A DNA stretch of 54,351 bases from a virus. Numbering within the stretch: position 1 is the stretch's first letter; each line of letters starts with the position of its first letter. The notes beneath the pieces were generated by a model that saw only the letters and a list, made by a program, of their open reading frames with translations, ran no database searches and was not told where the DNA came from. The stretch covers positions 1 through 54,351 of the IMG/VR virus record IMGVR_UViG_3300045988_082110. One strand, given 5' to 3'. The translations under genes were made by a program, and so were the position numbers. This document shows, piece by piece, positions 2,694 to 54,351 of the stretch.

Positions 2694-4838
2694 CTATATG
2701 ATGGTTGCTGCCGAAACAGAAACCTTTCTTCTCATTACTCTTGCCTGAATGGAAATCATCTTTGGCATTTCCATTTCGTTGAAACAGATGTGGAGTCCGA
2801 TGGCTCTGGTCATGAGCAAATCATCGTGCTTTCCGTCTGCTGCCTCGTATATGGTTCCGTTCTTCTCGTAGGTTAGATATTCATCTAAGCATCTATCGTC
2901 TCGCTCTACATAGAGTTGTTCACGGATAACCTGAACCAATACTGAGATAACCATTGGCTTGGTTGCCACGTTGGTATGGAATCCGTACTTCACTGGAACC
3001 TTATTCTTGATGTCTGATTCGCTCTGTTTGCGTGCATAGAGATTGTCGTATACATCTTTAATTTGATTCAGGATGAACTCAGACTGGTCACCACCTTCCA
3101 AGATGTGCTCCTTGTCTTTCGTCTCCAAGGTATTGGATTCAATCACCAACAAAGCATCGTTGTAGTATTTGGCTATCTGAGCCGCCTTCCATGCCAGTAA
3201 GTCCATATCAATATGCCCATACCATTGGGCTACCACATACGGCTTGCCACCTTCCATCATCCAATAGCGGTCGAAGACACAGATAACAGACCAGTCGGCA
3301 TTCTTGCTACGTCCACCAATATCCACTACGACCAGATAGCGGTTTATCACCTTGCAATCATCAAAGGTCTCGGGCTTGCTCCATATCCACAACTGACCCT
3401 GCTTGTCTTCACAGAACCGAACATTCTGCATACACTTCTTGCCCTTGTAACCATCACCATAAACATCACCGATGAACTTAGGTGCTCGGCATCCCTTGCG
3501 GAACTTGTCAACCTTGTCTTCGGCAAACACCTTGGCTCCTGAATGCTTGAATGCTTCAATATCATCGGTAGGGTAGCCAGCAGCCATATCGGCATGGTCG
3601 GTGAACTTCCTGCGCTCGGCAATATACCAGTTAATGGCTTCGAGTGGAGCACCCAGTGTCCATAACTTCCAAAGATAGGTACATGGCTCCTCTCGGTCGG
3701 ACATCGTGTTGGTATTGTTGCGGTTCTCGTATAACCATTTAGCGAACTCTACCTTCTGTTTCTTGCTTTCAAATTCCAGATGATACATATCGTATATCTC
3801 GTACCAAGGCACAAAGAATGGTTCAAACTGAGATTCGCCCTTGACTGCTGCAAGCCACTCCTTGTGGAAGAAGTTGCCAGTACCATTGGCGGTTGATTCA
3901 TAGGCAATCATCGTGTATGGTCGATACAAGATACCATTGGTAGCATTCTGTACCACCTCCTCAGGAGATTTACCATCCGTCTTTTTCCACAAACCAACCT
4001 CGGAAAGGTGAACCAAGTTGTAGTCTTCACCATTGGCTGACAACGGTCGTTCCATGGAACCCACCTTAATCTTGCAGAATCGCTGAGGAACCTTCTTTAC
4101 ATTACCTGATGCTCCCACTCCAACAAACTTCGGTTCGTTCTCAGAGAACGCTTCTCCCATTTCGTAGAGGAACTTGGTAGGGAAGTTTTTCAGAGCTTCC
4201 TCGAACATACCTCGAATGGTCTCTGCTGTGTCCTTGACCTGAGCCACGATGAGCGAGTTGAGTCCCTTCTGCCACATGAGTTGCAGCCAGAGAAAGTACA
4301 TCTGAATGACCGTAGAACCTCCCCATTGTCGGGCTTTCAGCAGGATGAGACGGATAGGGCGATTTTTCTTTCTTCGCTCCTCCAGCCACCTGAGCAGTCT
4401 GCGCTGCGGTCTTCTGAGCACAAAACGGAAGGGGAGACCTCCACCTTTCGGTTTGATATAGATGAATGTGGCAAAGAAGAAGAAAGGGTCGTGTTTCATC
4501 CTGATGCGAGTGAACTGCTCTACCAGTTGTTCTATTTCCTCTTCTAGGTTGTATGGCTCGTCTATATCCTTGTGCAGTTCCTCGATTACTGCCTTGCAAC
4601 TACCAAACTCGATGAGCATCTTGACGAGCGGAATCTTCTTCATGGAAACTGGAAGCTGCTGTCTCTGAATTGGGAAATCAGGAAGGAAGAGCAGGAATCG
4701 CTTATCTCCACAACCTTCACCCTTGATAGGATTGAATGGTGTGTTGATTTCCTTGATTCGTTTCTCGTTCTCTTTCAGGATGCCAAGCACATGTTTATCT
4801 ACAGCATCAGTCAGTTTGGCGGTTACTTGTCTTGGCAT
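2694..4838 (-). CDS. terL: Terminase large subunit
   Basis: Walker A-like KARQWGGST. The C-terminal nuclease region has acidic motifs (VVVDIGGRS, KHDDLLMTRAIGLH). I moved the start to MPRQVTAK (ATG 4838) because the upstream 72 nt overlap the rhomboid ORF. Confidence 0.88.
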   Translation of the reverse strand: MPRQVTAKLTDAVDKHVLGILKENEKRIKEINTPFNPIKGEGCGDKRFLLFLPDFPIQRQQLPVSMKKIPLVKMLIEFGSCKAVIEELHKDIDEPYNLEEEIEQLVEQFTRIRMKHDPFFFFATFIYIKPKGGGLPFRFVLRRPQRRLLRWLEERRKKNRPIRLILLKARQWGGSTVIQMYFLWLQLMWQKGLNSLIVAQVKDTAETIRGMFEEALKNFPTKFLYEMGEAFSENEPKFVGVGASGNVKKVPQRFCKIKVGSMERPLSANGEDYNLVHLSEVGLWKKTDGKSPEEVVQNATNGILYRPYTMIAYESTANGTGNFFHKEWLAAVKGESQFEPFFVPWYEIYDMYHLEFESKKQKVEFAKWLYENRNNTNTMSDREEPCTYLWKLWTLGAPLEAINWYIAERRKFTDHADMAAGYPTDDIEAFKHSGAKVFAEDKVDKFRKGCRAPKFIGDVYGDGYKGKKCMQNVRFCEDKQGQLWIWSKPETFDDCKVINRYLVVVDIGGRSKNADWSVICVFDRYWMMEGGKPYVVAQWYGHIDMDLLAWKAAQIAKYYNDALLVIESNTLETKDKEHILEGGDQSEFILNQIKDVYDNLYARKQSESDIKNKVPVKYGFHTNVATKPMVISVLVQVIREQLYVERDDRCLDEYLTYEKNGTIYEAADGKHDDLLMTRAIGLHICFNEMEMPKMISIQARVMRRKVSVSAATII

Positions 4839-25611: not shown

Positions 25612-26064
25612 CTAGAAGAGTGATAGCTGACCAGTCTTGTCGTGGTAGTGATTTCCTGAGGGGAATATCAGTTCCTCGAACATGGCGGTCAGGCAGTTGG
25701 TTACTATTGAGTTTCCTGCAAGGGCATATAGTTTGCTTTTGCTGATGATGAGTTGACCAGACTTCTCCTTGCTCAGGAGTTTGTCTATGTCAGCTTCGTG
25801 TACTCCCATCAGTCGGAAACAATCTCTTGGAGTGTACTTTCTGATTTGGATGGAGTATTTCTTTCCGTTTGGAGCGGTGTGAATGATTTCTTTGTTCATG
25901 ATTGTTACGAATGTCATGTTTGCTGTATCTATGGTTGTCTTGATGGTAGGGGAGATACTTTGCATTACAGCTTGGTTGTAGATGTCGAGAACTTGACCGC
26001 CTAAATCAGGCTTCACCTTCCCTGATAGGAGCAGGGATTTCATTCTCTTTCCTCCTGTTATCAT
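25612..26064 (-). CDS. C5-cytosine DNA methyltransferase fragment 5: TRD-like unit plus motifs IX and X
   Basis: SISPTIKTT, then YTPRDCFRLMGV (motif IX) and LAGNSIVTNCL (motif X). An internal ATG at 26043 has GGAGG upstream. Confidence 0.8.
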   Translation of the reverse strand: MITGGKRMKSLLLSGKVKPDLGGQVLDIYNQAVMQSISPTIKTTIDTANMTFVTIMNKEIIHTAPNGKKYSIQIRKYTPRDCFRLMGVHEADIDKLLSKEKSGQLIISKSKLYALAGNSIVTNCLTAMFEELIFPSGNHYHDKTGQLSLF

Positions 26065-26222
26065 ATCTCTTTGACGATTAAGAATAGTGGAATGCAGTTA
26101 CCTCCGTGACCCATAGCTGAATTGAGAGTAGGAGAGATTCCCTTGGTGGAGTAGACTCTGGTCTGCTGCTCTATTCTGCCTTTGATTTGGAGGTTTGCTA
26201 GCTTTATAATTTTGTCGCACAT
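26061..26222 (-). CDS. C5-methyltransferase fragment 4 (TRD-like, 53 aa)
   Basis: Hand translation gives MCDKIIKLANLQIKGRIEQQTRVYSTKGISPTLNSAMGHGGNCIPLFLIVKEI. It has a TAATG overlap upstream and an ATGA overlap downstream. Confidence 0.6.
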   Translation of the reverse strand: MCDKIIKLANLQIKGRIEQQTRVYSTKGISPTLNSAMGHGGNCIPLFLIVKEI

Positions 26223-26413
26223 TATAATTTCTTTATGATTAAAACTGCATTGGCTGCTCTGCCATCGTTATGTATATAGTTAGCAAAACCAGCCTTATAA
26301 TAACTTGTACGGATTGTTCTACTTAAACCATCTACGTCTGAGTTGATGAGCAGTTTTCTGCTTGTAACTTTTTGATTATCAATACCCCCCCTTAGGGAAA
26401 TGGTCAACACCAA
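26222..26413 (-). CDS. C5-methyltransferase fragment 3 (TRD-like, 63 aa, TTG start in the track)
   Basis: Contains DVDGLSRTIRTSYYKAGFANYIH. Confidence 0.5.
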   Translation of the reverse strand: MVLTISLRGGIDNQKVTSRKLLINSDVDGLSRTIRTSYYKAGFANYIHNDGRAANAVLIIKKL

Positions 26414-26525
26414 GAAGATTGGCTATGCTGATTCCTGCACCAAATGATGATGTGATGGTCGGGGAGCATCCATCAGCAGTTTTCGGTATTGCTATCTTCG
26501 GGGTAGAGTTTTTCGATTGATTCAT
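26379..26525 (-). CDS. C5-methyltransferase fragment 2 (TRD-like, 48 aa)
   Basis: Hand translation gives MNQSKNSTPKIAIPKTADGCSPTITSSFGAGISIANLLGVDHFPKGGY. It ends just after a G7 run (C7 at 26385-26391 on the plus strand). Confidence 0.45.
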   Translation of the reverse strand: MNQSKNSTPKIAIPKTADGCSPTITSSFGAGISIANLLGVDHFPKGGY

Positions 26526-27231
26526 TGATGTCTGCTTTGGTGAGATACTTTTCTAGGAGGGGCTGAGATAGAAAATATTCAGGAGATACACCATCTTCCA
26601 ATATGTCCTCAACCGTTGACTCTAACTTGATAGGAGAAGGGAAGTGGTACTCTGGGCTCGGCTCGTCTTCTGTGCGTAGGATGGAGATAACAAAGATACG
26701 CTCACGATTCTGAGGGATTCCGTAATCTTTTGCATTCAGTACCTTGTAGAAGGAGGTGTAACCGAAGGAGTCAAGGTCTTTGACGTACTGGAAGAAGTAC
26801 TTTCTCATTGACTTTGAGAGAAGACCTTTTACGTTTTCGAGCATAACGTACTTTGGTTTCTTGACTGCCAGCATTCTCTTCTCCTGAAAGATAAGGGATG
26901 AGCGTGTTCCGCTGCCTTCCTCTGCTCCTTGGCGAAGTCCTGCATTGGAGAAATCTTGGCATGGTGAAGACCATGATATGAAGTCGAAGTCGGGAACCTC
27001 ATTCCAGTCTATCCTTGTCACGTCTCCATAGTTAGGTATATCTCTTCCGTGCAGGAGTCCGTAGGCTTGGATGGCTGATGGTTCTATCTCTGAGTAGCCC
27101 ACTACCTTGAAGTCGAACTCAGGATGCTTATCTTTGAGGTACTTGAAGGCTAGGCTCTGACTGCCATATCCTGCGAATGCCTCAAAGACTCTGAGAGGAT
27201 GCTGCTTGTTGTACTTACTGATTGCTATCAT
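26473..27231 (-). CDS. C5-cytosine DNA methyltransferase fragment 1: motifs I to VIII
   Basis: FEAFAGYGS (motif I), SSPCQDFSNAG (IV), MLENVKGL (VI), QNRERIFVI (VIII). Confidence 0.88.
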   Translation of the reverse strand: MIAISKYNKQHPLRVFEAFAGYGSQSLAFKYLKDKHPEFDFKVVGYSEIEPSAIQAYGLLHGRDIPNYGDVTRIDWNEVPDFDFISWSSPCQDFSNAGLRQGAEEGSGTRSSLIFQEKRMLAVKKPKYVMLENVKGLLSKSMRKYFFQYVKDLDSFGYTSFYKVLNAKDYGIPQNRERIFVISILRTEDEPSPEYHFPSPIKLESTVEDILEDGVSPEYFLSQPLLEKYLTKADINESIEKLYPEDSNTENC

Positions 27232-36464: not shown

Positions 36465-36581
36465 ATGAGTGAATTATATTGGTTAGGTGTTTTAGGCAAC
36501 CTGAATGATTTAGGTGGGGCTATTGCTGTTTTATCATTTTTGGTATTTATAGCTTTAGGCTTCTGTTTTTTTTTTGTGTAG
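36465..36581 (+). CDS. Possible 38-aa TM peptide ending in a T10 run
   Basis: Hand translation gives MSELYWLGVLGNLNDLGGAIAVLSFLVFIALGFCFFFV. Confidence 0.35.
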   Translation: MSELYWLGVLGNLNDLGGAIAVLSFLVFIALGFCFFFV

Positions 36582-39466: not shown

Positions 39467-42400
39467 ATGGCTACAAGAAAAGAGATTGCACAGAATCAAA
39501 AGATTCTATATGATGATGCAGTTGCAAACAATATGTTTCAGGCTGCTGTACCTAGCTTTAAGGAGTTTCAGAAGCGACTCGAAGGTCAGGGGTATCAGAA
39601 AATGGTGTATGATAACTACAAAAAGCACAATGTGAGAGGAAAGGGATTTAATAATCTCAATGAGTTCCGTGGTGCTTTTGGTGGTTCTTTCTATGCTGAT
39701 GAAAATAAAATTGGTGTATCGGCTGGGGCAGCAGCTATCTCGGCTAGTGCTCAGCAGACAAAGAACAATGCTGGCAGATACAATAGACTGAAACAACGCA
39801 AGCAGAAACAGCAGAAGGATTTCGGTCGTGTGAACTTGGGTACACATCAGACTCCTTATGGTGGTGATGCAAACAATGTGGTGAAGGATGATTTTGCTTA
39901 CAATCCTGAGACTGGCAAGACTGGCGCATACGTTACCTCGGACAATGAGAATGCTTATTCTCTTCCTGAAGCTGAGCAGATGCAAGCTATTCTTGACAAG
40001 CAGAACGATGCCTATCAGGTAGCGGTAGATACTGGCGAGATTCCATCTGCATTTGATGTTCGTGACAAGAATGGTAACTATGACTTGCAGGAGAACATCG
40101 GCAAGAATGGAACCTACCTTACTGAGGAGGGTGCTCAAAAGCAGTTTGACAAGAAACTGGCTGATGCCTATGCTCGAAAGAAGGAGATTGAGGCTCTTAT
40201 CGCTGAGGATAATCGGCAACACGGAAATCCTTTGCTCTCTTATGGTGCTAGTATCGGTGCAAGTAACGGAAGAACTGCTGAGCAGAGTGACTATAGAAAT
40301 AAGTTGGCAACCTCTCTTTCTCTGGTTAAGCAGCAGATTGGTGCGCTGGAAGCGGTGAAACAATATCCTACAAGTAGCTGGGGTGAGGATGCCTTGAAGG
40401 CTCTTGACAATACTGCATTTACTGCAAAAACATGGGATTTCGGTCTTACTGACTTCGCTACTATGGGGCAGATGGAACGTATCAAGACAAAGATGGATAA
40501 CAATATTCCTCTCTCAGGTTCTGATAAGATGCTCTTGAAGAGTAAACTGGGTGCGGATGCTGCTGCGGCTCTTGAAGACGAGAAGATGGGTAACGTCTAT
40601 CGTTGGACGAAGATTGCAGGGCAGAGTCTCCCATTTATGGCTGACTTTTTCTTGACTGGCGGTTATGGTGGTATTACTAAGGGCATCAGTCGTGGAGCCT
40701 TGAAGATTGCTGCTAAGCGTGGCATGGGCAAGGTGAGTGCTGCGGTCTTGAAGAATACTGGTATTGTGATTGGTGATATTATCGGCTCGTATGCGATGGC
40801 TGGAACTGAGCAAGCGTTGAAGACTGGTGCTGACATCATGCAGCGACATCTTGGTAATCTGTATCAGGATGAGAAGGGTGATTATAAGTTTGGTACTTTC
40901 GATGAGAATGGAAATCTTCTGCATGAGGGTGGTGAGTCTATTGGTACTGCTCTCTATAAGGGTATGACCTCTGCTATGGTAGAGAACTATACTGAAAAAC
41001 TCTTCGGTCACAACTATGGTATCAAGAAGGGTGCTGTCAACTTTATGGAGAAACATGGTATGAATGCTTCTGCTGAGTTCTTCAAGAATATCGGCAAGAG
41101 TGGATGGTATACCAATTCCAAGAAGTGGATGGAGAAGTTCGGTATCAATGGTTTCGCTGAGGAAGTTATGGAGGAGGAAATTGGTATTCCTCTTCATGCC
41201 TTGCTGGATGGTGAAGGTAAGGTTAGCGACCTTCTTGATGCTAAGCAGCAACTCGACATCATCGGTGGTATGGCTATCTCGGTCGGTTCTATGTATGCGA
41301 TGGGTGCTGGCTCCCGACCAGTAAAAGGTATCTACAATCGTGCTCAGTATTACCGATTCCGCAACAAGGTGAACGTGGCTGATAGTGATGCTCAGAACCT
41401 TATGGGCGATAACTGGGCAGACATCAAGGATAAGATAGACAACGCAACCAACGAGCAGATGGGTGGCGTGCTGGCTGATATTCTCAGACAGAGAGATACC
41501 ATGACCAAGGAGCAGATTAATGCTGCTGTTAACTATGGTGTCAACCTGATGAAGATGCGTGGCTACAATATTGCCAAGACTGCTGAAATGAATGCCAAGG
41601 AGATAACCAATGAGCCTACAACACCTGAGGAGCAGCATCAGGCAGATATTGACAACGCTTATTCTGAGGGGCATGATGCTGATGATGCAGACAAGCATGA
41701 TATTCAGATTCAGCAGGAAGACCAGATGAAGACTCTTGCAGCAGCATTGGGTATCTCTGAGCAGCAGCTATCTGCCATGAGTGACGAGGAACTGGAATCC
41801 ATGACTGGGCAGGATGATAAACTTGACCAAGCTATCTATGACTACCAGTTGTCTTCTGCCCGATACCAAGGTGTGGTTGATGATGCACAAGACAAGGTTG
41901 ACCTTGCTGCTCATCAGGCAGAGCAGAGAGTGGATATGTACACAGACCAGAGTCGTAGTTCTGTCCGTAACGCTACTATCAAAGCATTAGGTGGCTTGGA
42001 AGACTATGGTGTTTATATTATCAGTGGTAATATTGCTACTCATGATGATGGCTCCATTGATGTAAGCAATAGCGATGGTATGATTCTATACTATGACCCG
42101 ACAACGAATAGTGTAGAACATGCTGATGCGTTGATGTTCGCTGAACTGGGTGAAGAACTCCCTGCTGATGATGTGAAGGCTCAGGCAGTAGCTGATGCAA
42201 AAGAGAATGCTATCAAGGAAGTGGCTGGCATCATTGATGGAACCGTTGAAATTGGCTCCCAGTTCAATGTGACTGATACTGATGGTACTGAACATACCTA
42301 TGAGGTGTTGGCTGACTATGGTGATGGTACTGCTGCTATCTCTATAGATGGTAACGTGGTGGAGAATCCTTATTCGCTTGCAGACTTGCAGCAGATGAAA

Positions 42401-45400
42401 GACTTGGAAGACCAGAAGAGACTGGAAGCTGCCAAGGCTGAGCGTGAGCAGATGGAAAAAGAACGTGCTGCCCAGCAGAATCAGGAGACAGAAGAGACTC
42501 AACCTTCGTTTGACTTCAATCAGATTCTCAATGATAATGGTAACGTGGTGCTCGTTGATGTGCTCGACAAGGATGGTAATACCAAATATCCTGACTCTAG
42601 ATTGTTCCTCATTCGTGATGCTGGTGCCAAGGCTAAGGTAGTTGAGTTGAAGAGTGATGGTACTATTGTTCCTCATGCTGTGAACAAAGAAGATGTGGCA
42701 ACTATCTCTTCTATGTCGCTCGATGAATACAAACAAGCTATGCCTGAATCCTCAACAATAGAGGATAATAGTGGAGAAGAATCTGATGAGGATTCTCAGT
42801 TGGCAAATCTCGGTTTGCCTAAAGGTAGCGAGATATGGATGAGTGGCGATGGATTCGGAAGACCAAAGGAAAACACTCTATCAAAAGTTGTTGGTATTGA
42901 TGAGCAGGGCAGTATAATCCTTGAAGATAAGGATGGTAAAAAGTGGTCTGCATCATTTGATTATATCAACAACCATCGTGAGCTTCCACCTTTGGATGAG
43001 AATACCAATATCGTTAATGAGGAGAATAATCAATCTGAATCAAATGCTGAGGAGAACACTCCTGCTCCTGAGCAGACTCCTGCTATTACTCTTGAAGATG
43101 GAACCATTGTTCCTATGCTGGAGGATGGCAATCCTGACTTCTCGAAGCTGACTGCCGCACAGACTGCTGAGTTGTATGATACTCAGTTCGGTGAGGATGC
43201 AGATAGTATCGTATCTGGATATGTGTCTGACGCAAAGAAGGCACTCGACAAGGCTAGCAACATGACCGTGAAAGGTAAGACTTTCGTGGAACAGAAGGCT
43301 GCCAAGGATGCCAAGGAGAAGGCTATTGCTGATGCTCAGGCGGTTTATGATTCTGCTATCGCTATTCGTGATGCTTACAACGAGCGACAACTGGCTAAGG
43401 TGGAAGATACTGCTGAGGGTAGAAAGGAACTCATTGAGAAGGCAAGAAGAAAGTTCGCTCGCTTGAAGAGTGCTGTTAAGGATGATGCTGAGGCTGTATC
43501 ACAACTCTACCGAGAAACTATCGGTTCTCTCCTTCATCGTCTGTATGATAGTACTGGTATTGACGTGACTGATACAACTCCGCTTACTGCTGAGGAGTAT
43601 GTGGCTAGCAACCTCGGTGCTCACTCTCTCAACTTAGAGGGAACAGAGACAAGCAAGGGTGTTAAGCAGGAGACTGGATTGAGCAGAGAAGACTTTGCCA
43701 AGACTCAGTTGCTCGCTGCTGATGGCAAGGGAACTACTATTGATGCGCTCGTTCACAGCTTGTGGGAGAATCGTCCATCCAACCTTGAATCACTCGACAC
43801 TCAGGATATTCGTAACGCACTTATCGGTGTACTCAATAGCGGTTTTAAGGCATCGGAAGCAAGGAATTTTGTTGAAAATATTCGCATTGCTCAGGCAGAG
43901 AACATACTTGAAGAGCAGAAACGTGCTCAGGAGAATGCAGCCTATGCTGAGCAGCACAAGGCTGAGCCAGAGGCCGAGTTGAAGGCGAAGTCGGATGAAA
44001 AGGCTGAGTTGAAGGCGAAGTCTGAGGCGAAGTTGGATAATGAATCGTCTAATGAATCTAATGATTTGTCTAATGAAACGGATAATGAGAAGATAAATGA
44101 CAATATAAATGATAACATAAATGTTCCTGAGGATGCTACTGATGAGAATCCTTTAGGCGCACAGCGTGATGAATCTGACCTTCCTTTCTCTGCTAAGGAG
44201 AATGGTATGCAGCAGACAACTGCCGTGCGTGCTGCTGACGTGGAGAAGAATAAGGTGAATGATATGAAGGTTGTTGACAATATCGTAGGGCAGAAGACTC
44301 GCAAGGCTTTCGAGAGACTGGCTAAGATGATGGGTGCTAACATTCAATGGCAGTACTCTGACAAGTTGGGCAACGGCTGGATTCAGGAGACCAAGGATGC
44401 CGATGGCAACGTTCATCGTACCATCTTCATCACTCTTGACTCTTCTATCACGGAAGGTGCTCAATTTATCTTCGGTCACGAAATGACCCACCAAATCAAG
44501 AACCTGAACCCTGCTGCATACAATGAGTTGACTCAGCTTGTGCTTGATACCTATGGCTCTGATGCCTTCGACAAGGCGGTGGATGAGACCATGCAGAGAT
44601 ATTCTGATGCTGGATTCTCTGGACGTGCTAGAGATTACTATGCTGAGGAGGTTGTTGCTGATTCGGTAGGTGAAATGATTCGTGACTTGAACCTTGCTCA
44701 CACTCTAGCCATGAAGATGTCTCATCCTCTGCTCGCTGCTATCCATGAGATATTGCAGAAGATTAAGTTGGCATTCTTTGGTACTGAGTATAGCGATGTG
44801 ACCAAGAACATCATCCGCTCTATCGAACAAGCCTACGTGAAGACTGCCAATGGTCAGGTAACGAATTCTGAAACTGGCGAAGATGTTGCCTTCTCTCTCC
44901 GTCAGAAACCTGAACCTAAGAAGAAGGGTGTCGGCTACAAGGTGTTCGTGCTAAAGGATGGCAAACTCTATCCACCAATGGTAGCGAACCCTGATGGCGC
45001 TGCTACTCCAGTTGGTGTATGGCTCGATGCTGATGCGGCTCCTATTGCAGGAGAAAGCAAGACTGGCAGACCTCAGGTTAAGCAGGGCGGCAAGGGAACA
45101 CAAGGCGGTAGCGGTAAGCTAGCCTATAGACCAGGCTGGCATCTTGGTGTAGTGCCTTATGCTATTCAGTTCAATCGCAAGGATGCTGAGGGAAACAAGA
45201 CTCTCTTCCCTAAGAACTTCGTCTTCGCTGAGGTGGAGTATGCTGCTGATGTTGATTATCAGGAGGAAGCTCGCCAAGAGGGTATCAATCCATCGGGCAA
45301 GTATCAGCATTCATTGGCTGGTTTGAAACATCTGCCTACTGATGGATATTATATGTATCGTACCAACCCGAACCCTGAGACTGACCCTTGGGTGATTACT

Positions 45401-48400
45401 GGTGCGATGAAGGTGAACCGTATCTTGACCAGAGCAGAGCAAGCGGAACTTGTGAAGAATGCCGGACGTGAACCTCAGCAGATTCAGGAGGGCGATATTG
45501 TTACTGATGATGTTGTGAACAGCATCAATCAGGAGATAGCTGCTGCTCCTAAGTTCTCGTTGAAGGTGTATCATGGTAGCGGTGCTGACTTCACAGAGTT
45601 TGACTTCGACCACATGGGCGAGGGTGCTGGCTCCCAAGCATTCGGTTGGGGTGGCTATGTTACCTCTTCAAAGAAGATAGGAAAGGACTATGCTCGGTTA
45701 GGTAAGGAGACTGGCGGTGACTATCAGTATATGGGTGACACGAAACTTACCTCAGAACAAGCAAGGGTTCTTGCTGTTTTTGTAGGTTTACCTGCATACA
45801 AGGAATATTCATCTATGAAGGAAGGAGTTGGTGCTTATATTAAGTCTTTGCGTACCTTGGAACAGAAGGGTGGTTTTATGGCAAAACATGCTGGAGAACG
45901 TATCAAGGTACTGGAGAGTGTTCTCCCTAAACTTGACAAAGTGAGCAGATATGATTTTGCGCACAAGTCTCGTAATCTCTATGAGGTTGATATACCTGAG
46001 GATAATGGCAGCAACTATATTGAGTTCTACGAAGATGCTACCCCTGAGTTTAAAGAACAGATTAAGAGTGTGTTGGCAAATGGTCTCCCTTCTGAGTTGA
46101 AGAAAATGCCTGAGTACAAAGAGGCTGAACGGAAATTCTATGAGGAGAACGGAACAGATGAATCGTTTGAGAAGTCTCTTATTGATGATGCTCTATTTGA
46201 GTTGGAACGTAGAAAAAGTAATGGCGATGCTTATAATGCGTTGTCTGTTGCTGTTGGTGATAAACTGGCAAGCAAAATTCTTTCTTCGCTCGGATATACA
46301 GGTATCAAGTACCCTGCTGGCACCATAATGGGTGGCGCTGAGGAAAATGATACCAACTATGTTATCTTTAAGCCTGAGGATATGAAAATCACAGAGCATA
46401 CCAAGTTCTCTCTCCGTTTGAAGTCTGCTATTGAGGAGACTGAAACCAATCCATCTGACGCACAGAAAGAGAGTGGCAACTACAAGAAGGGACACATCAA
46501 GTTCGGTGGCTACGATTACACTATAGAAAATCCGAAGGGTTCTACTCGCTCAGGCAAGGATGCCGATGGGAAAGAATGGAAAGTTATCATGCACGATACC
46601 TATGGTTATATCCGTGGTAAGTTTGGCAAGGATGGTGACCATTTGGATATGTTCATCAATGACAAAGCAGACCTTGATAATTGGAATGGTGATGTGTTTG
46701 TCGTTGACCAAGTGAATCCTGATGGCTCGTTTGATGAGCATAAGGTAATGTATGGCTATGACTCCATGGATGATGCCAAAAAGGCTTATCTCGCCAACTA
46801 TAGCGATGGTTGGCAAGGTCTTGGAAATATTACTGGAGTAAGCAAGGATGAGTTCGACAAGTGGCTTGATACGAGCAATCGTAAGCTAAAGCCATTTGCA
46901 GACTATGCTAAAGTAAAGTTCTCGTTGAAGGATATAAAGCCAGTAGGTGTTGGTGCTTTCGGAAATATATACAACCAGTTCCGTGGCAATGCCAAGGCTG
47001 CAATCGAGTTCTTGAAGAAGGTTCGTGGTGGAGAAGCTGTCGGTGCTCTTCATCACAAGGATATTGGTGATATTGATTTGGTTTGGGGCAAAGAAGGAAC
47101 TGGACATAGTGATGGCTATGGTCTTTCTAAACTTGTGAAGTATCATCCTGAGGTTCTTGATAATTTGCAGGAGATTCTGAATGATATGCGTGTAGTTTCA
47201 AGCAGTAAGAATCGTGTAAACTTGGAAAGTGAAACCCATAAGGCTGGTGTTCGTCTTACTTGGGATGGAGAAAGAAAATCTTGGTTGTTGACTGCATTTA
47301 AAAAGGAAACTTCGGCAAGCGACAAGAGGACAGACACTGCCGCTACTTCGTTGGAAGGTGACACCGCTCTCTCCCAAACCGAAGGTTCTGCTGCAAAGAT
47401 AGACAATTCTTCTGAAACTGCCAAGGAAAATGGCGAAAAAGTTGATGTTGAGGCTCCAAAAACTTTCGATGAGTTCCTGAATCATCCTTCTTTGAAGTTC
47501 TCTATCAAGAATGAGCAGCAGAGAAAAGCGGCTGAGGATGCTTATATCGTGGGGAATACCCGATTCTCCTTGCGCTATGACCAGTTTGAGCATGACCTGA
47601 ACCAGTGGAAGAAGGATAATAATCTGCCTAAGGATGCACAGAGGCCAACCATCCCACATCGCAATGCTGGAGAGAGTGCCGTTGACTTCCTGAGGAGAGT
47701 AGACGAGTACCGCAAACAGATGGCTCTGTGGAAGACTGCTCCAACCTACGAGCAGCATCTTTTGAGCGATGATACTGCCCTTGGAGAGTTCAACCGAGAG
47801 TTGCAGCGTGGTTCTGTGCTGAAACGTATCGCCTTCCAAGATAGTATGCTGGCTATCCGCAAGGCTCAGGAAGCTATCATGAAGGAAGTGGGTGTTGACC
47901 GCCTGAACATGGCTGAGGATGCCTATACTGCCGAGAACCGCAGTCATGGCAAGGGAAAGAACGAGTTTGAGGAGTACAACAATGAGTTCTTGCAGCCATT
48001 GAGAAAGGCTTATCATCAGATGAAGAAGATACTGGGTGACAGCTATGATAATGTCCGTATCTACATGATGGCTAAGCATGGTTTGGAACGTGATGCTCAG
48101 ATGGCATTCAAGAAGTCTTTGGAAGCTGATTATGAGGACGTGGCTCAGAGAAGTGCGGCATACAAGGCTTACAAGGGCGATATGAACCGTATTATCAATG
48201 ATAGCGATTTGGAGTTTGGAAGAGTGGATTTCACTACTTGGAGACAGAGAGATAACGCTCTCAGAACGAAATACTCTCCTTCCTATATGGACTATCGTTA
48301 TGATGAGAATGGTATTGCCTACGATTATTCAGGTTTGTCTGCTCTCTATGACGGCTCAGACTTTGAGGAAGCTGCCTACAAACTGGTAAAGGATATTGAG

Positions 48401-52896: not shown

Positions 52897-53273
52897 TGAG
52901 AAGAGTGATACAGCTTCCGAAGTACGATTGGAGCATAGTATGTTTCATAGGTTATCAGCCTTCTGATGCCGATGAGATATGCCATGCTCTTTCTGATATT
53001 AGATGTAGCGGAAATCCATTATCGGAAGCATACGAACATCTAACCAAGTAGAGTGGAGATAGAGGGTTGACTTATTCTAACCTAGCAGAAAGAAGGAGCG
53101 TGCTTGCCATTGGGGAGTGTGAATCTGATGGTAGCATCATCAATACAATAGGTCATGAGCTTCTTCATGTGGTAGCGCATATCTGTGAGCAGGATGGTAT
53201 TGATATGCTGAGCGAAGAGCCATGCTATATGATGGGGAGTTTATGCGAGAAGTTCTTCAAGATGTATTGTTAA
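52893..53273 (+). pseudogene. Small HExxH protein interrupted by one in-frame TAG (53049-53051): pseudogene or read-through gene
   Basis: MMRRVIQLPKYDW...AYEHLTK-TAG-SGDRGLTYSNLAERRSVLAIGE...IGHELLHVVAHI. Both halves are in the same frame (53067-52893 = 174). Confidence 0.6.
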
Positions 53274-53410
53274 TATGTATAGGGAGGAGGCATGATATTT
53301 GCTTGGTGGATTGGTGCAGGCTTGCTGCTTACGCTTATTTTAAATTTATAATTTGCAAAATTACGAAATTCCACCCCCCCGTACAAAATGTATTAACGTT
53401 TATTAAAACT

Positions 53411-53449
53411 AATTATACGTATGCAACAATCAGTTGCATACGTATAATT
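53411..53449. terminator. Perfect 17-bp inverted repeat with a 5-nt loop between convergent units
   Basis: AATTATACGTATGCAAC-aatca-GTTGCATACGTATAATT. The right arm abuts the tail fibre stop codon. Confidence 0.65.
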
Positions 53450-54351
53450 TATGAATTTCTAATGTCATTGTTCCATGATTGCATTCTAAATCTACCAGTT
53501 CCTGCATCGTTTTCACCATTAATATATGGTGCTTTTGTCATAGAACAATTATTTACAACAAATGTGCTATACTTCAAACTATCACCTAACTGAGATACAA
53601 TTATAGTTCCGTCTTTAAAATAAGCATCCTTTATCATTACAGAATTACAGAAGTTGCTTCCAAAATTTGACTGAGGATTATGATAGCTAATAACTTGGTC
53701 TAAGTTACTCTTATTGATGTCAATGTTCTTGGACTCATAATAACCACCGATGATTTGAATATCGCCATGTTCACCAAGTCCACCTCCAATACACTGACAC
53801 GTTTTAAAGTATGTCTTATTTGTGTTGTCAAGAACCATCCTGCAATTATCGTACAGATGTTTATAGCATCCCTTACCATTACATTCATCATGGACAACAT
53901 ATCTTGTGTTAGTACATTCAAACTCTCCACCATGTATTTCAAAGTCACTTCCTCCAATATCAGTTGTTTCAATAGCATTCAAAGGAGAAAATCTTTCTAA
54001 GCTTGCATTAAGCGTACCTGTGTAATTTGCTATTATTTTTGCACCTTGTGAGAAAAAGATTCGTACACCTCTTCCGATTTTAGGACCATAATATCCTGCG
54101 GCACTGTCTGAATCAATCTTTGCAATGGTCAACTCCGCAACAATATCATAAGTACCGGCATCTACATATAAGTCAACATTTCTTTTTGCTACAGCAGCAG
54201 CTAAGCCATCAGTAAACTTGGTGAACTCTCGATTTGCTCCAACGTACATTTTTGCTCTGCTTTCTATTATGTCAACATCAGATTTGAGTGTATCAACATC
54301 AGATTTGAGTGTATCAACATCAGATTTGAGTGTATCAACATCAGATTTGAG
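53449..54351 (-). CDS. Tail fibre, C-terminal part (possible beta-helix receptor-binding or depolymerase domain)
   Basis: The track ORF 53449..54249 stays open upstream to 54351 (LKSDVDT x3, LKSDVDIIESRAK-MYVGANREF). It is in frame with the 1..1556 ORF once the 77-bp overlap is collapsed (1556+826 nt = 794 codons). The beta-helix idea is a weak by-eye impression (VDLYVDAGTYD, repeated G/N-rich strands). Confidence 0.7.
   Translation of the reverse strand, partial: LKSDVDTLKSDVDTLKSDVDTLKSDVDIIESRAKMYVGANREFTKFTDGLAAAVAKRNVDLYVDAGTYDIVAELTIAKIDSDSAAGYYGPKIGRGVRIFFSQGAKIIANYTGTLNASLERFSPLNAIETTDIGGSDFEIHGGEFECTNTRYVVHDECNGKGCYKHLYDNCRMVLDNTNKTYFKTCQCIGGGLGEHGDIQIIGGYYESKNIDINKSNLDQVISYHNPQSNFGSNFCNSVMIKDAYFKDGTIIVSQLGDSLKYSTFVVNNCSMTKAPYINGENDAGTGRFRMQSWNNDIRNS
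54275..54351. repeat. Second copy of the 77-bp terminal identity (assembly overlap of a circular or terminally redundant genome)
   Basis: Identical to 1-77. It is preceded by unique sequence (tatgtca), and the copy at the window start is followed by unique sequence (agaggttt). Confidence 0.95.

What the first reader, a model, noticed from the sequence alone, without database searches (positions are those of the whole stretch)
25612..27231. C5-cytosine methyltransferase broken into five overlapping ORFs, with four TRD-like units (multispecific type)
Fragment 1 (26473-27231) has motifs I-VIII. Fragment 5 (25612-26064) has motifs IX-X. Each later piece carries a variant of the target-recognition core: DGCSPTITSSFGAG (fragment 2, 26379-26525), DGLSRTIRTSYYKAG (fragment 3, 26222-26413), KGISPTLNSAMGHGG (fragment 4, 26061-26222) and QSISPTIKTTIDT (fragment 5). 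Four tandem TRDs recall the multispecific Bacillus phage enzymes (SPR, phi3T, rho11s). The frame changes are +1 near an A5 run, +1 at a G7 run (26385-26391), then a TAATG overlap and an ATGA overlap. Removing one G would fuse fragments 2 and 3. The possible explanations are homopolymer sequencing errors, phase-variable specificity, decay into a pseudogene, or a true multi-subunit enzyme. For the last, M.AquI is a known precedent for a C5-methyltransferase split in the variable region.
Basis: partly seen in the sequence, partly recalled or inferred. Interest (0 to 1): 0.68.

Follow-up and report, generated by a model that had tools for sequence, protein, structure and literature searches.

The report
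Phage methyltransferase split into mini-genes
A gut-bacterium (Segatella copri) phage encodes a DNA cytosine methyltransferase as one catalytic gene, several tiny genes that each carry one DNA-recognition module, and a tail gene; this layout is conserved and under selection, and a mutable G-run reshuffles two of the modules, so it is not a sequencing error or a dead gene.

Summary
Five overlapping minus-strand ORFs (27231-25612) together carry motifs I-VIII, four TRD-like modules and motifs IX-X.

It is not an assembly error or a decaying pseudogene. The 252-aa catalytic ORF and the 150-aa C-terminal ORF stand alone in 80 related viral contigs and in thousands of database members. Hosts include a complete Segatella copri chromosome.

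Between them lies an ordered array of TRD mini-ORFs. There are eight module types and 24 architectures in 81 loci. Stops and restarts (ATGA or TAATG) sit exactly at the inter-TRD linkers. Every module shows dN/dS of 0.05-0.3 in its own frame and about 1 or more in the other frames.

Relatives about 50% identical carry homologous modules in tandem in one 400-780-aa chain, so this locus is a fragmented multi-TRD ("multispecific-type") enzyme.

The G7 run (26385-26391) is hypervariable. Near-identical genomes differ only there (G6, G7, G8). This gives three products: A1 truncated (this window), A1 complete, or A1-B1 fused.

How the mini-ORF peptides work is inferred, not shown. The most likely answer is that they act in trans with the N and C subunits, extending the M.AquI and M.EcoHK31I precedents. 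I rate it a new variant of a known kind.

The parts
26473..27231 (-). N: stand-alone catalytic subunit ORF (252 aa). It carries motifs I (FAGYGS), IV (SPCQ), VI (ENV) and VIII (QNRER), plus the proximal part of the variable region and an acidic tail.
   Evidence: Pfam PF00145 positions 2-227, E=1.7e-52. It aligns to M.HhaI. It is a stand-alone ORF of about 250 aa in relatives from 98% down to about 55% identity. dN/dS is 0.09.
26473..26525 (-). 52-nt dual-coding overlap between the end of N (frame 0) and the start of mini-ORF A1 (frame +1, ATG at 26525-26523). It contains the A5 run at 26509-26513.
   Evidence: dN/dS in the overlap is 0.25 in the A frame and 0.69 in the N frame. Relative P0391 reads the same region in one frame as '..LIEKAKNRISLPKTADGCSPTITT..'.
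26379..26525 (-). A1: first TRD mini-ORF (48 aa here, core DGCSPTITSSFGAG). In this window the G7 state truncates it to '..FPKGGY*', so it lacks the terminal VLIIKK strand.
   Evidence: dN/dS is 0.12-0.15 in its own frame.
26385..26391 (-). Poly-G tract (C7 on the + strand): a hypervariable, contingency-type switch at the A1/B1 junction.
   Evidence: Run lengths of about 5-10 occur across loci. Contigs carrying the identical N protein have G6, G7, G8 or an interrupted G6TG4, and this is the only internal indel in 5.76 kb. The three frame outcomes number 18, 13 and 12 in 45 loci.
26222..26413 (-). B1: second TRD module (core DGLSRTIRTSYYKAG, ends VLIIKKL*). It has no ATG of its own here; in G6/G9 variants it is fused to A1.
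   Evidence: dN/dS is 0.13. BLASTP to a module of single-chain P0265 gives E=2e-6 against a 9-sequence database.
26061..26222 (-). D: third TRD mini-ORF (53 aa, core RVYSTKGISPTLNSAMGHGG). Its ATG overlaps the B1 stop (TAATG, 26224-26220). Its TGA overlaps the next ATG (ATGA, 26064-26061).
   Evidence: It is intact, with an ATG start and the ATGA junction, in 73 of 81 loci. dN/dS is 0.13, or 0.05 in the loci without F1. It aligns to the M.HhaI recognition loops 'GQGERIYSTRGIAITLSAYGGG'.
25888..26064 (-). F1: fourth TRD module (core QSISPTIKTTIDT). It is the N-terminal 59 aa of the last ORF and is covalently joined to motifs IX-X. The second poly-G tract seen in relatives ('PDMGGQ') is interrupted here (GATTTAGGCGGT, 26007-25996), which locks it in frame.
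   Evidence: dN/dS is 0.18.
25612..25887 (-). Fc: the C-terminal part of the last ORF. It carries the beta-strand TFVTIMNKE, motif IX (RKYTPRDCFRLMG) and motif X (GNSIV), and ends ..QLSLF.
   Evidence: Pfam positions 253-322. BLASTP to the C-termini of single-chain relatives gives about 1e-15. It is a stand-alone ORF in all 341 homologues found. dN/dS is 0.07.

Best explanation
This is a naturally fragmented, multi-TRD (multispecific-type) C5-cytosine DNA methyltransferase. It belongs to a temperate phage of Segatella (Prevotella) copri and sits in the early recombination/replication module.

Shown:
- The ancestral form is a single chain: catalytic core, several tandem TRDs, then motifs IX-X.
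- In this lineage the chain is cut by stop/restart junctions placed exactly at the inter-TRD linkers.
- The pieces are N (motifs I-VIII); mini-ORFs A1, B1 and D (one TRD each); and F (TRD F1 plus motifs IX-X).
- All pieces are under purifying selection in their own frames.
- Module content varies between phages, but module order does not.
- The G-run at the A1/B1 junction mutates far faster than the rest of the locus. It cycles between three products: A1 truncated (G7, this window), A1 complete (G8), and an A1-B1 fusion (G6 or G9).

Inferred:
- The ORFs are translated as separate polypeptides by termination-reinitiation at ATGA/TAATG.
- The TRD peptides dock in trans into the small domain, so one catalytic core serves several specificities.
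- The enzyme methylates phage DNA at several motifs to escape host restriction. Module D probably targets a GCGC-like site.
- Separate translation units stop a frameshift in one module from removing motifs IX-X. Individual specificities can then be switched or lost independently, which would be a bet-hedging arrangement.
For: Real and conserved:
- The 120 best N homologues listed (of 7825 with E<=1e-10) are nearly all 245-342 aa, and none is full length.
- 80 IMG/VR loci with N at 91% identity or more show N in frame 0 and A in frame +1. In two of them N and A are fused.
- All 341 homologues of F are short, stand-alone ORFs.
- The same design occurs in the S. copri HDE04 complete chromosome and in Prevotella/Segatella MAGs.
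- It also occurs in relatives with only 52-70% N identity, including one with 12 or more mini-ORFs.
- Logan contig L094, from run SRR5091579, is 100% identical to the window over 5759 bp, including G7.

Selection (pooled pairwise dN/dS):
- N 0.09, Fc 0.07, D 0.13, E 0.15, F1 0.18, A2 0.20, C 0.22, A1 0.12-0.15, B1 0.13.
- The other two frames give about 0.4-5, mostly 1 or more.
- D keeps its ATG, its stop and the ATGA junction in 73 of 81 loci.

TRD identity:
- A chimera of N, D and Fc is colinear with M.HhaI residues 13-287.
- D plus Fc is colinear with unsplit MTases of cultured phages.
- Single-chain relatives of 418-777 aa carry tandem modules homologous to B, C, D and E, and end in ..QLSLF.
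- P0391 carries N, A and B in one ORF.

Action in trans:
- 19 loci have no TRD covalently joined to N or to Fc. They still show dN/dS of 0.08 (N), 0.05 (D) and 0.06 (Fc), with pS of 0.14-0.17.
- In-frame fusions exist but are rare, at 1-35 database members, against hundreds for the unfused forms.
- Published precedents are the two-polypeptide enzymes M.AquI and M.EcoHK31I, and fragment complementation of M.BspRI, M.BsuRI, M.HhaI and M.SssI (PMC3404938).

Switch:
- L081/L082 differ from L083 by 0 substitutions in 6.1 kb and by just two 1-nt indels, both in poly-G tracts.
- Contigs with the identical N protein carry G6, G7, G8 or an interrupted tract.
- The three outcomes number 18, 13 and 12 in 45 loci.

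Anti-restriction context: the window almost lacks GATC, GGCC, CGCG, CCGG and CCWGG, but keeps GCGC, GCNGC and AGCT.
Against: - There is no direct evidence that the 48-63-aa peptides are made, are stable, or bind N and F.
- No C5-MTase is known to take a whole TRD in trans.
- AlphaFold gave no usable model of the small domain. pLDDT was below 45 for the N tail and F1.
- Recombination between phages could inflate the apparent within-subset divergence used.
- In this window, A1 lacks its terminal strand and B1 lacks an ATG, so two of the four TRDs may be inactive here.
- The poly-G polymorphism comes from consensus assemblies, not read pile-ups. A contribution from homopolymer error cannot be fully excluded.
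- The specificity assignments are by resemblance only.
Confidence: 0.6

Rival explanations
1. Two-subunit enzyme plus silent modules. Only N and F form an active, M.AquI-like heterodimer that uses the F1 TRD. The internal modules (A1, B1, D) are not functional as separate peptides. They persist as a reservoir and become active only when indels or recombination fuse them in frame to N or to Fc.
For: N and F match the M.AquI alpha/beta layout (PMC3404938). Natural fusions exist: N-D, N-A1-B1, D-F and A2-D-Fc. G6/G9 states fuse A1 to B1.
Against: D is kept as an intact 53-aa ORF, at 98-100% aa identity in most loci, with dN/dS of 0.05-0.13. Selection acting only on rare fused variants could hardly achieve that. 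Nineteen loci lack F1 altogether yet keep N and Fc under strong constraint. Fused forms stay rare. No module type other than F1 is seen in frame with Fc apart from rare single variants.
Confidence: 0.2
2. Recoding. The ORFs are joined during expression into one or a few longer polypeptides. The route would be ribosomal frameshifting at the junctions, or transcriptional slippage on the G-run or A-run, so that the enzyme is effectively single-chain.
For: Every junction in this lineage is a -1 overlap, and in the L084 lineage every junction is a regular +1 overlap, 'TATGAAAC.TAA'. The frame downstream of each stop is open for some codons upstream of the ATG. A G7-G10 run could support polymerase slippage.
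Against: No canonical slippery heptamer is present at the ATGA or TAATG junctions (inspection). The ATG of each module is conserved, which frameshifting would not require. Different lineages use junctions of opposite direction, which fits reinitiation better than a single frameshift mechanism. Joining 12 junctions, as in L084, would need near-100% efficiency at each.
Confidence: 0.12
3. Pseudogene. The methyltransferase is decaying after frameshift and nonsense mutations, and the fragments have no function.
For: Some individual loci carry extra lesions. Examples are the F1 nonsense codon in S. copri HDE04 and frameshifted F1 or D in a few contigs. The window's G7 state truncates A1.
Against: dN/dS is far below 1 in every piece, and only in its own frame. 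The breaks sit at the same linker positions across relatives with 52-99% N identity. N is intact in nearly all of the 81 loci.
Confidence: 0.05
4. Sequencing or assembly artefact. The true gene is one continuous ORF, and the breaks are homopolymer errors.
For: Two of the four breaks lie in or next to homopolymers (A5 and G7).
Against: The TAATG and ATGA junctions and the stop codon of N are not homopolymer sites. All recur in 80 or more contigs from many studies and in an isolate chromosome. No full-length ORF appears among the listed close relatives of N, of F, or of the concatenated modules; the longest is 342 aa.
Confidence: 0.02

Closest known systems
Multispecific C5-methyltransferases of Bacillus subtilis phages (M.SPRI, M.Phi3TI, M.Rho11sI, M.SPBetaI, M.H2I; Trautner laboratory; cited from my own knowledge)
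   Same: A phage-borne C5-MTase with one catalytic core and several tandem TRD modules between motifs VIII and IX, held in a fixed order. Modules are gained and lost between related phages. The presumed role is self-protection against several host restriction systems.
   Different: Those enzymes are single polypeptides. Here each TRD is its own ORF, or is attached only to the C-terminal piece. The host is a Bacteroidota species. Direct sequence relatedness to the SPR group was not tested; N is 44-47% identical to other Bacillus phage MTases.
M.AquI (CYCGRG), a two-subunit C5-MTase (PMC3404938)
   Same: It is split inside the variable region. [quoted passage not shown] The smaller ORF carries the distal variable region plus motifs IX-X. 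N and F have the same layout.
   Different: M.AquI has two pieces and one specificity. This locus has three additional TRD-only mini-ORFs between the two pieces, and relatives have up to 12 or more. In 19 relatives the last ORF has no TRD at all.
M.EcoHK31I (YGGCCR), alpha plus a small beta polypeptide (PMC3404938)
   Same: A small polypeptide supplies one element of the small domain (motif IX) in trans. This shows that short peptides can complete a C5-MTase.
   Different: In M.EcoHK31I the small peptide supplies motif IX, not the TRD. There is only one such peptide, and no array or switch.
Phase-variable methyltransferases and contingency loci (Type III mod phasevarions; H. pylori MTases with homopolymers; phage contingency loci in T2/T4, PMC12633550)
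   Same: A homopolymer inside the coding sequence changes length between otherwise identical genomes and changes the reading frame.
   Different: The tract does not simply turn the enzyme ON or OFF. It selects among three arrangements of two TRD modules and leaves the catalytic and C-terminal ORFs untouched. The gene is in a phage. Switching within a population was not observed directly.
Type I R-M HsdM/HsdS organisation (analogy only)
   Same: Catalysis and sequence recognition are on separate, translationally coupled polypeptides, and the specificity modules are exchangeable.
   Different: The fold and chemistry are unrelated (N6-adenine MTase, HsdS with two TRDs). No homology is implied.

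Membership tests
C5-cytosine DNA methyltransferase (Pfam PF00145, motifs I-X) | Motifs I (FxGxG), IV (PCQ, catalytic Cys), VI (ENV) and VIII (QxRxR), in that order | tested here: met
   ORF 27231-26473 matches PF00145 positions 2-227, E=1.7e-52. It aligns to M.HhaI. FAGYGS, SPCQ, ENV and QNRER are visible in the translation.
C5-cytosine DNA methyltransferase (Pfam PF00145, motifs I-X) | Motifs IX and X downstream of a variable (TRD) region | tested here: met
   ORF 26064-25612 matches PF00145 positions 253-322, but weakly (E=1.2e-3, 18.8 bits against a 22-bit cut-off). Support comes from about 1e-15 BLASTP matches to the C-termini of single-chain relatives and from colinearity with phage MTases.
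C5-cytosine DNA methyltransferase (Pfam PF00145, motifs I-X) | Transfers a methyl group to cytosine C5 in DNA | not testable with these tools
   This needs expression plus bisulfite, EM-seq or nanopore methylome analysis.
Multispecific phage C5-MTase (SPR/phi3T type) | Two or more tandem TRD modules between motifs VIII and IX | tested here: met
   Four modules share one layout with each other and with the M.HhaI TRD. Modules B, C, D and E are homologous to tandem modules of single-chain relatives.
Multispecific phage C5-MTase (SPR/phi3T type) | All TRDs and the catalytic core lie in one polypeptide | tested here: not met
   There are five ORFs here. The same fragmentation is seen in 80 or more relatives.
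Multispecific phage C5-MTase (SPR/phi3T type) | Each TRD independently confers one target specificity | not testable with these tools
   This requires a methylome of constructs with individual modules removed.
M.AquI-type two-subunit C5-MTase | Adjacent ORFs: alpha carries motifs I-VIII plus the proximal variable region; beta carries the distal variable region plus motifs IX-X | tested here: met
   N and F have this content. The definition is taken from PMC3404938.
M.AquI-type two-subunit C5-MTase | Exactly two polypeptides, both necessary and together sufficient | tested here: not met
   Three further selected mini-ORFs lie between N and F. Sufficiency cannot be tested here.
Phase-variable (contingency-locus) methyltransferase | A simple-sequence repeat inside the coding region whose length change alters the product | tested here: met
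   G7 at 26385-26391. G6/G9, G7/G10 and G8 give three different products.
Phase-variable (contingency-locus) methyltransferase | Repeat length differs between otherwise near-identical genomes | tested here: met
   There are 0 substitutions but 2 poly-G indels in 6.1 kb. Contigs with the identical N protein carry G6, G7 or G8, and this is the only internal indel in 5.76 kb.
Phase-variable (contingency-locus) methyltransferase | Reversible switching within a clonal population, with a change in methylation | not testable with these tools
   This needs read pile-ups or single-plaque lineages, plus methylomes.

The most novel reading that the evidence does not exclude
TRD mini-proteins of 45-65 aa are free, exchangeable specificity subunits for a C5-cytosine methyltransferase core (N plus Fc). 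This would be an M+S-type organisation not known for this enzyme class. Arrays of up to a dozen such subunits would be translationally coupled, and individual specificities would be toggled by poly-G contingency tracts. A gut phage could then vary its methylation repertoire within a population.
Probability: 0.35. Interest if true: 0.85.

Novelty: new variant of a known kind. Interest (0 to 1): 0.7.

Why it matters
If the mini-ORFs work in trans, C5-methyltransferases can be built from a constant catalytic core plus small, swappable recognition peptides. That would change how 'frameshifted' methyltransferase genes in phage and metagenome annotation are read; they are normally dismissed as pseudogenes.

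It would also give a natural toolkit of about 50-aa DNA-recognition modules for engineering targeted cytosine methylation. Finally, it would add a clear example of a hypermutable switch in a temperate gut phage. The host, Segatella copri, is a major human gut species.

Even on the conservative reading, the locus shows that a multispecific-type methyltransferase family is widespread in Bacteroidales phages and evolves by gain and loss of modules.

Tried and rejected
- Nucleotide search of the cultured-phage collection found no match.
- Stop-codon reassignment (TGA or TAG read through) does not restore one ORF, because frame changes are still required.
- I inspected the junction sequences for -1/+1 slippery motifs and found none that is canonical.
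- An intragenomic shufflon or gene-conversion model is rejected. There are no direct or inverted DNA repeats longer than 17 nt between modules in the window. Module order is invariant, and only F1 occupies the position next to Fc.
- AlphaFold2 of N+F as a single sequence gave pLDDT 35. With a 128-sequence alignment it gave pLDDT 60: good for the catalytic core, but below 45 for the N tail and F1. Foldseek then only returned the expected M.HhaI, M.MpeI and M.HaeIII matches. This says nothing about how the pieces assemble.
- Pfam and PHROGs do not recognise the mini-ORFs.
- Literature searches for this architecture found only the general precedents.
- The large protein database holds no entries for the mini-ORFs on their own. 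All 112 hits are 127 aa or longer, so the modules are seen only as fusions or as F-type ORFs.
Full report
**1. The observation**

On the minus strand the window has five overlapping ORFs at exactly the coordinates given:

| Piece | Coordinates | Length |
|---|---|---|
| N | 27231-26473 | 252 aa |
| Fragment 2 | 26525-26379 | 48 aa |
| Fragment 3 | 26413-26222 | 63 aa |
| Fragment 4 | 26222-26061 | 53 aa |
| F | 26064-25612 | 150 aa |

- The frames run 0, +1, +2, +1, 0.
- Pfam DNA_methylase covers profile positions 2-227 in N (E=1.7e-52). It covers positions 253-322 in F, weakly (E=1.2e-3, below the curated cut-off).

**2. Not an artefact**

- N has 7825 database relatives at E<=1e-10. The 120 best, from 98% down to about 50% identity, are nearly all 245-342 aa. 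Many end at the same place (..KLYPED..*), and some clusters hold hundreds to thousands of members.
- F has 341 relatives, all short stand-alone ORFs of 95-237 aa.
- 80 IMG/VR contigs with N at 91% identity or more were fetched.
- The exact N protein of the window is on 20 contigs from different samples. One of them is 100% identical to the window over 5.76 kb, including G7.
- The same layout is present in the complete chromosome of Segatella copri HDE04 and in Prevotella/Segatella MAGs. That identifies the host and shows the phage is temperate.

**3. Anatomy across relatives**

- The stretch between N and the motif IX-X part (Fc) is an ordered array of modules. I named them A1/A2, B1/B2, C, D, E and F1.
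- In some loci an HNH endonuclease gene is inserted between modules.
- 24 architectures occur in 81 loci. The window's N-A1-B1-D-F1-Fc is one of the two commonest, with 11 loci.
- Order never changes; only presence or absence does.
- Each module has a strand-like start (K-hydrophobic), a core xGxSxT[IL]xxS, and a terminal strand VLI[IV]K[KE][LI]. The stop follows directly, overlapped by the next ATG as ATGA or TAATG.
- D keeps its ATG, stop and ATGA junction in 73 of 81 loci.

**4. The modules are TRDs, and the ancestor was one chain**

- A chimera of N, D and Fc aligns colinearly to M.HhaI residues 13-287 (E=2e-29). D lies on the two recognition loops: IEQQTRVYSTKGISPTLNSAMGHGG against GQGERIYSTRGIAITLSAYGGG.
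- D plus Fc is colinear with unsplit C5-MTases of cultured Streptococcus and Bacillus phages at about 34% identity.
- At 45-55% N identity most cluster representatives are single chains of 330-865 aa.
- Nine of these were read. Most (for example P0249, P0252, P0253, P0255, P0265, P0268, P0280) contain several tandem modules. Individual modules match our B, C, D and E, and the chains end in ..QLSLF like F.
- Their inter-module linkers (NLVVEP, FIVEKP, GVMEVIP) correspond to our VLIIKKL*.
- P0391 carries N, an A-like and a B-like module in a single ORF. It reads '..LIEKAKNRISLPKTADGCSPT..' where the window needs a +1 shift in the A-run and has acquired an ATG in the A frame.

**5. Selection**

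| Piece | dN/dS in own frame |
|---|---|
| N | 0.09 |
| Fc | 0.07 |
| D | 0.13 |
| E | 0.15 |
| F1 | 0.18 |
| A2 | 0.20 |
| C | 0.22 |
| A1 | 0.12-0.15 |
| B1 | 0.13 |
| B2 | 0.31 |

- These are pooled pairwise values. The two alternative frames give about 0.4-5, mostly 1 or more.
- In the N/A overlap, the A frame (0.25) is more constrained than the N frame (0.69).
- 19 loci lack F1, so no TRD is covalently attached to N or to Fc. Even so, N, D and Fc have dN/dS of 0.08, 0.05 and 0.06, with synonymous divergence of 0.14-0.17.
- This excludes pseudogene decay. It also argues that unfused modules are used.

**6. The G-run**

- Run lengths of about 5-10 occur at this site across relatives.
- Contigs with the identical N protein carry G6 (four), G7, G8, or an interrupted G6TG4. 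This is the only internal indel in 5.76 kb, against 0-9 substitutions in the three closest contigs (54 in the fourth).
- In a more distant lineage, three samples are identical over 6.1 kb apart from two 1-nt indels. Both are in poly-G tracts: this site, and a second one in F1.
- The three outcomes are about equally common in 45 loci:
  - A1 ending in VLIIKK..: 18 loci.
  - A1 truncated to 'GGY*', as in the window: 13 loci.
  - A1-B1 fused: 12 loci.
- The window's F1 tract is interrupted and in frame.
- This is the signature of a contingency tract, but switching inside one population was not seen directly.

**7. Wider distribution**

- Relatives with 52-70% N identity have the same design with other junction motifs.
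- One phage contig (L084) has N, 12 or more ATG-initiated TRD mini-ORFs, and a final 183-aa ORF with motifs IX-X.
- Most of its junctions (8 of 11) read 'TATGAAAC.TAA' or a close variant (..YET* overlapping MK..). They overlap by 11-14 nt, with a regular +1 frame step.
- Junctions of opposite direction in different lineages fit termination-reinitiation better than a dedicated frameshift signal.

**8. Mechanism**

- Shown: the points in sections 1-7.
- Inferred:
  - The pieces are translated separately.
  - N and F assemble as in M.AquI.
  - The TRD peptides complete the small domain in trans.
- The inference rests on the selection data, on the rarity of fused variants, and on published precedents. 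Those precedents are M.AquI, M.EcoHK31I, and fragment complementation of M.BspRI, M.BsuRI, M.HhaI and M.SssI (PMC3404938).
- A plausible rationale is robustness. With independent translation units, a frameshift in one module does not remove motifs IX-X.
- The gene sits among Erf, RecE-like exonuclease, VRR-NUC and replication genes.
- The genome nearly lacks GATC, GGCC, CGCG, CCGG and CCWGG but keeps GCGC, GCNGC and AGCT. This is consistent with site avoidance plus protective methylation. The GCGC guess for D rests on resemblance only.

**9. Rivals and limits**

- The rivals are an enzyme made of N and F only with silent modules, recoding into fused proteins, pseudogene decay, and artefact. 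They are weighed in their own section of this report.
- Structure prediction did not resolve the small domain.
- No paper describing this architecture was found in the held library. A preprint on phage contingency loci covers T2/T4 and does not mention such methyltransferase arrays (PMC12633550).

**10. Verdict**

- It is a new variant of known kinds: multispecific, split and phase-variable C5-MTases combined.
- The open and most interesting point is whether whole TRDs act in trans.

Noticed in passing
window 1-54351 (whole window): Extreme avoidance of some short palindromes: GATC 0 (about 266 expected), GGCC 2 (103), CGCG 2 (38), CCGG 6 (62), CCWGG 4, GGNCC 1, CCNGG 4. GCGC (45 against 63), GCNGC (199) and AGCT (137) are not avoided. 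This suggests site avoidance combined with protective methylation.
   Followed up: partly
window 39467-51157 (+): A single giant ORF of 3896 aa. It was not examined.
   Followed up: no
L002, L015, L025, L037, L042, L049, L052, L088 (about 870-1250 nt after the N start): An HNH endonuclease-like ORF of 120-124 aa is inserted between module A2 and B2/D. It ends in the same '..VLIIKRVS*' junction and TAATG overlap as a TRD module. It may be a homing element that promotes module exchange. It is absent from the window.
   Followed up: partly
L084 4274-6972: A relative with 58% N identity, on a 100-kb phage contig, has 12 or more TRD mini-ORFs. Most junctions (8 of 11) have an 11-14-nt overlap, 'TATGAAAC.TAA' or a close variant (YET*/MK..), with a regular +1 frame progression. 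Its N subunit has a strongly acidic tail (ENDFDEEDEEDFENFF).
   Followed up: partly
L086 4241-4270: In a relative with 70% N identity, a poly-G run sits directly after the ATG of the first TRD mini-ORF. In that assembly it puts the TRD out of frame. This is the classic ON/OFF position for a contingency tract.
   Followed up: no
L089 (S. copri HDE04 chromosome NZ_CP152346.1, 1448493-1455245), locus 4080-4100: In this isolate's prophage, F1 carries a nonsense codon just after 'PDMGG' and the tract is interrupted (GGGTGGATAA). The last ORF therefore restarts at MVLKGISPTIKTT.. (119 aa).
   Followed up: partly
window 53374-53380 and 36566-36575: The only other G/C homopolymer of 6 or more in the window is a C7 between the convergent ORFs 53067-53273 (+) and 53449-54249 (-). 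A T10 run lies at 36566. Neither was examined for length variation.
   Followed up: no
window 26098-26220 (-) and relatives: An alternative-frame ORF across module D (VRQNYKASKPPNQRQ.., 40 aa) is read through into F in some contigs, giving 161-202-aa products (for example P0123). dN/dS shows that this frame is not the selected one, at 1.65-3.2.
   Followed up: yes
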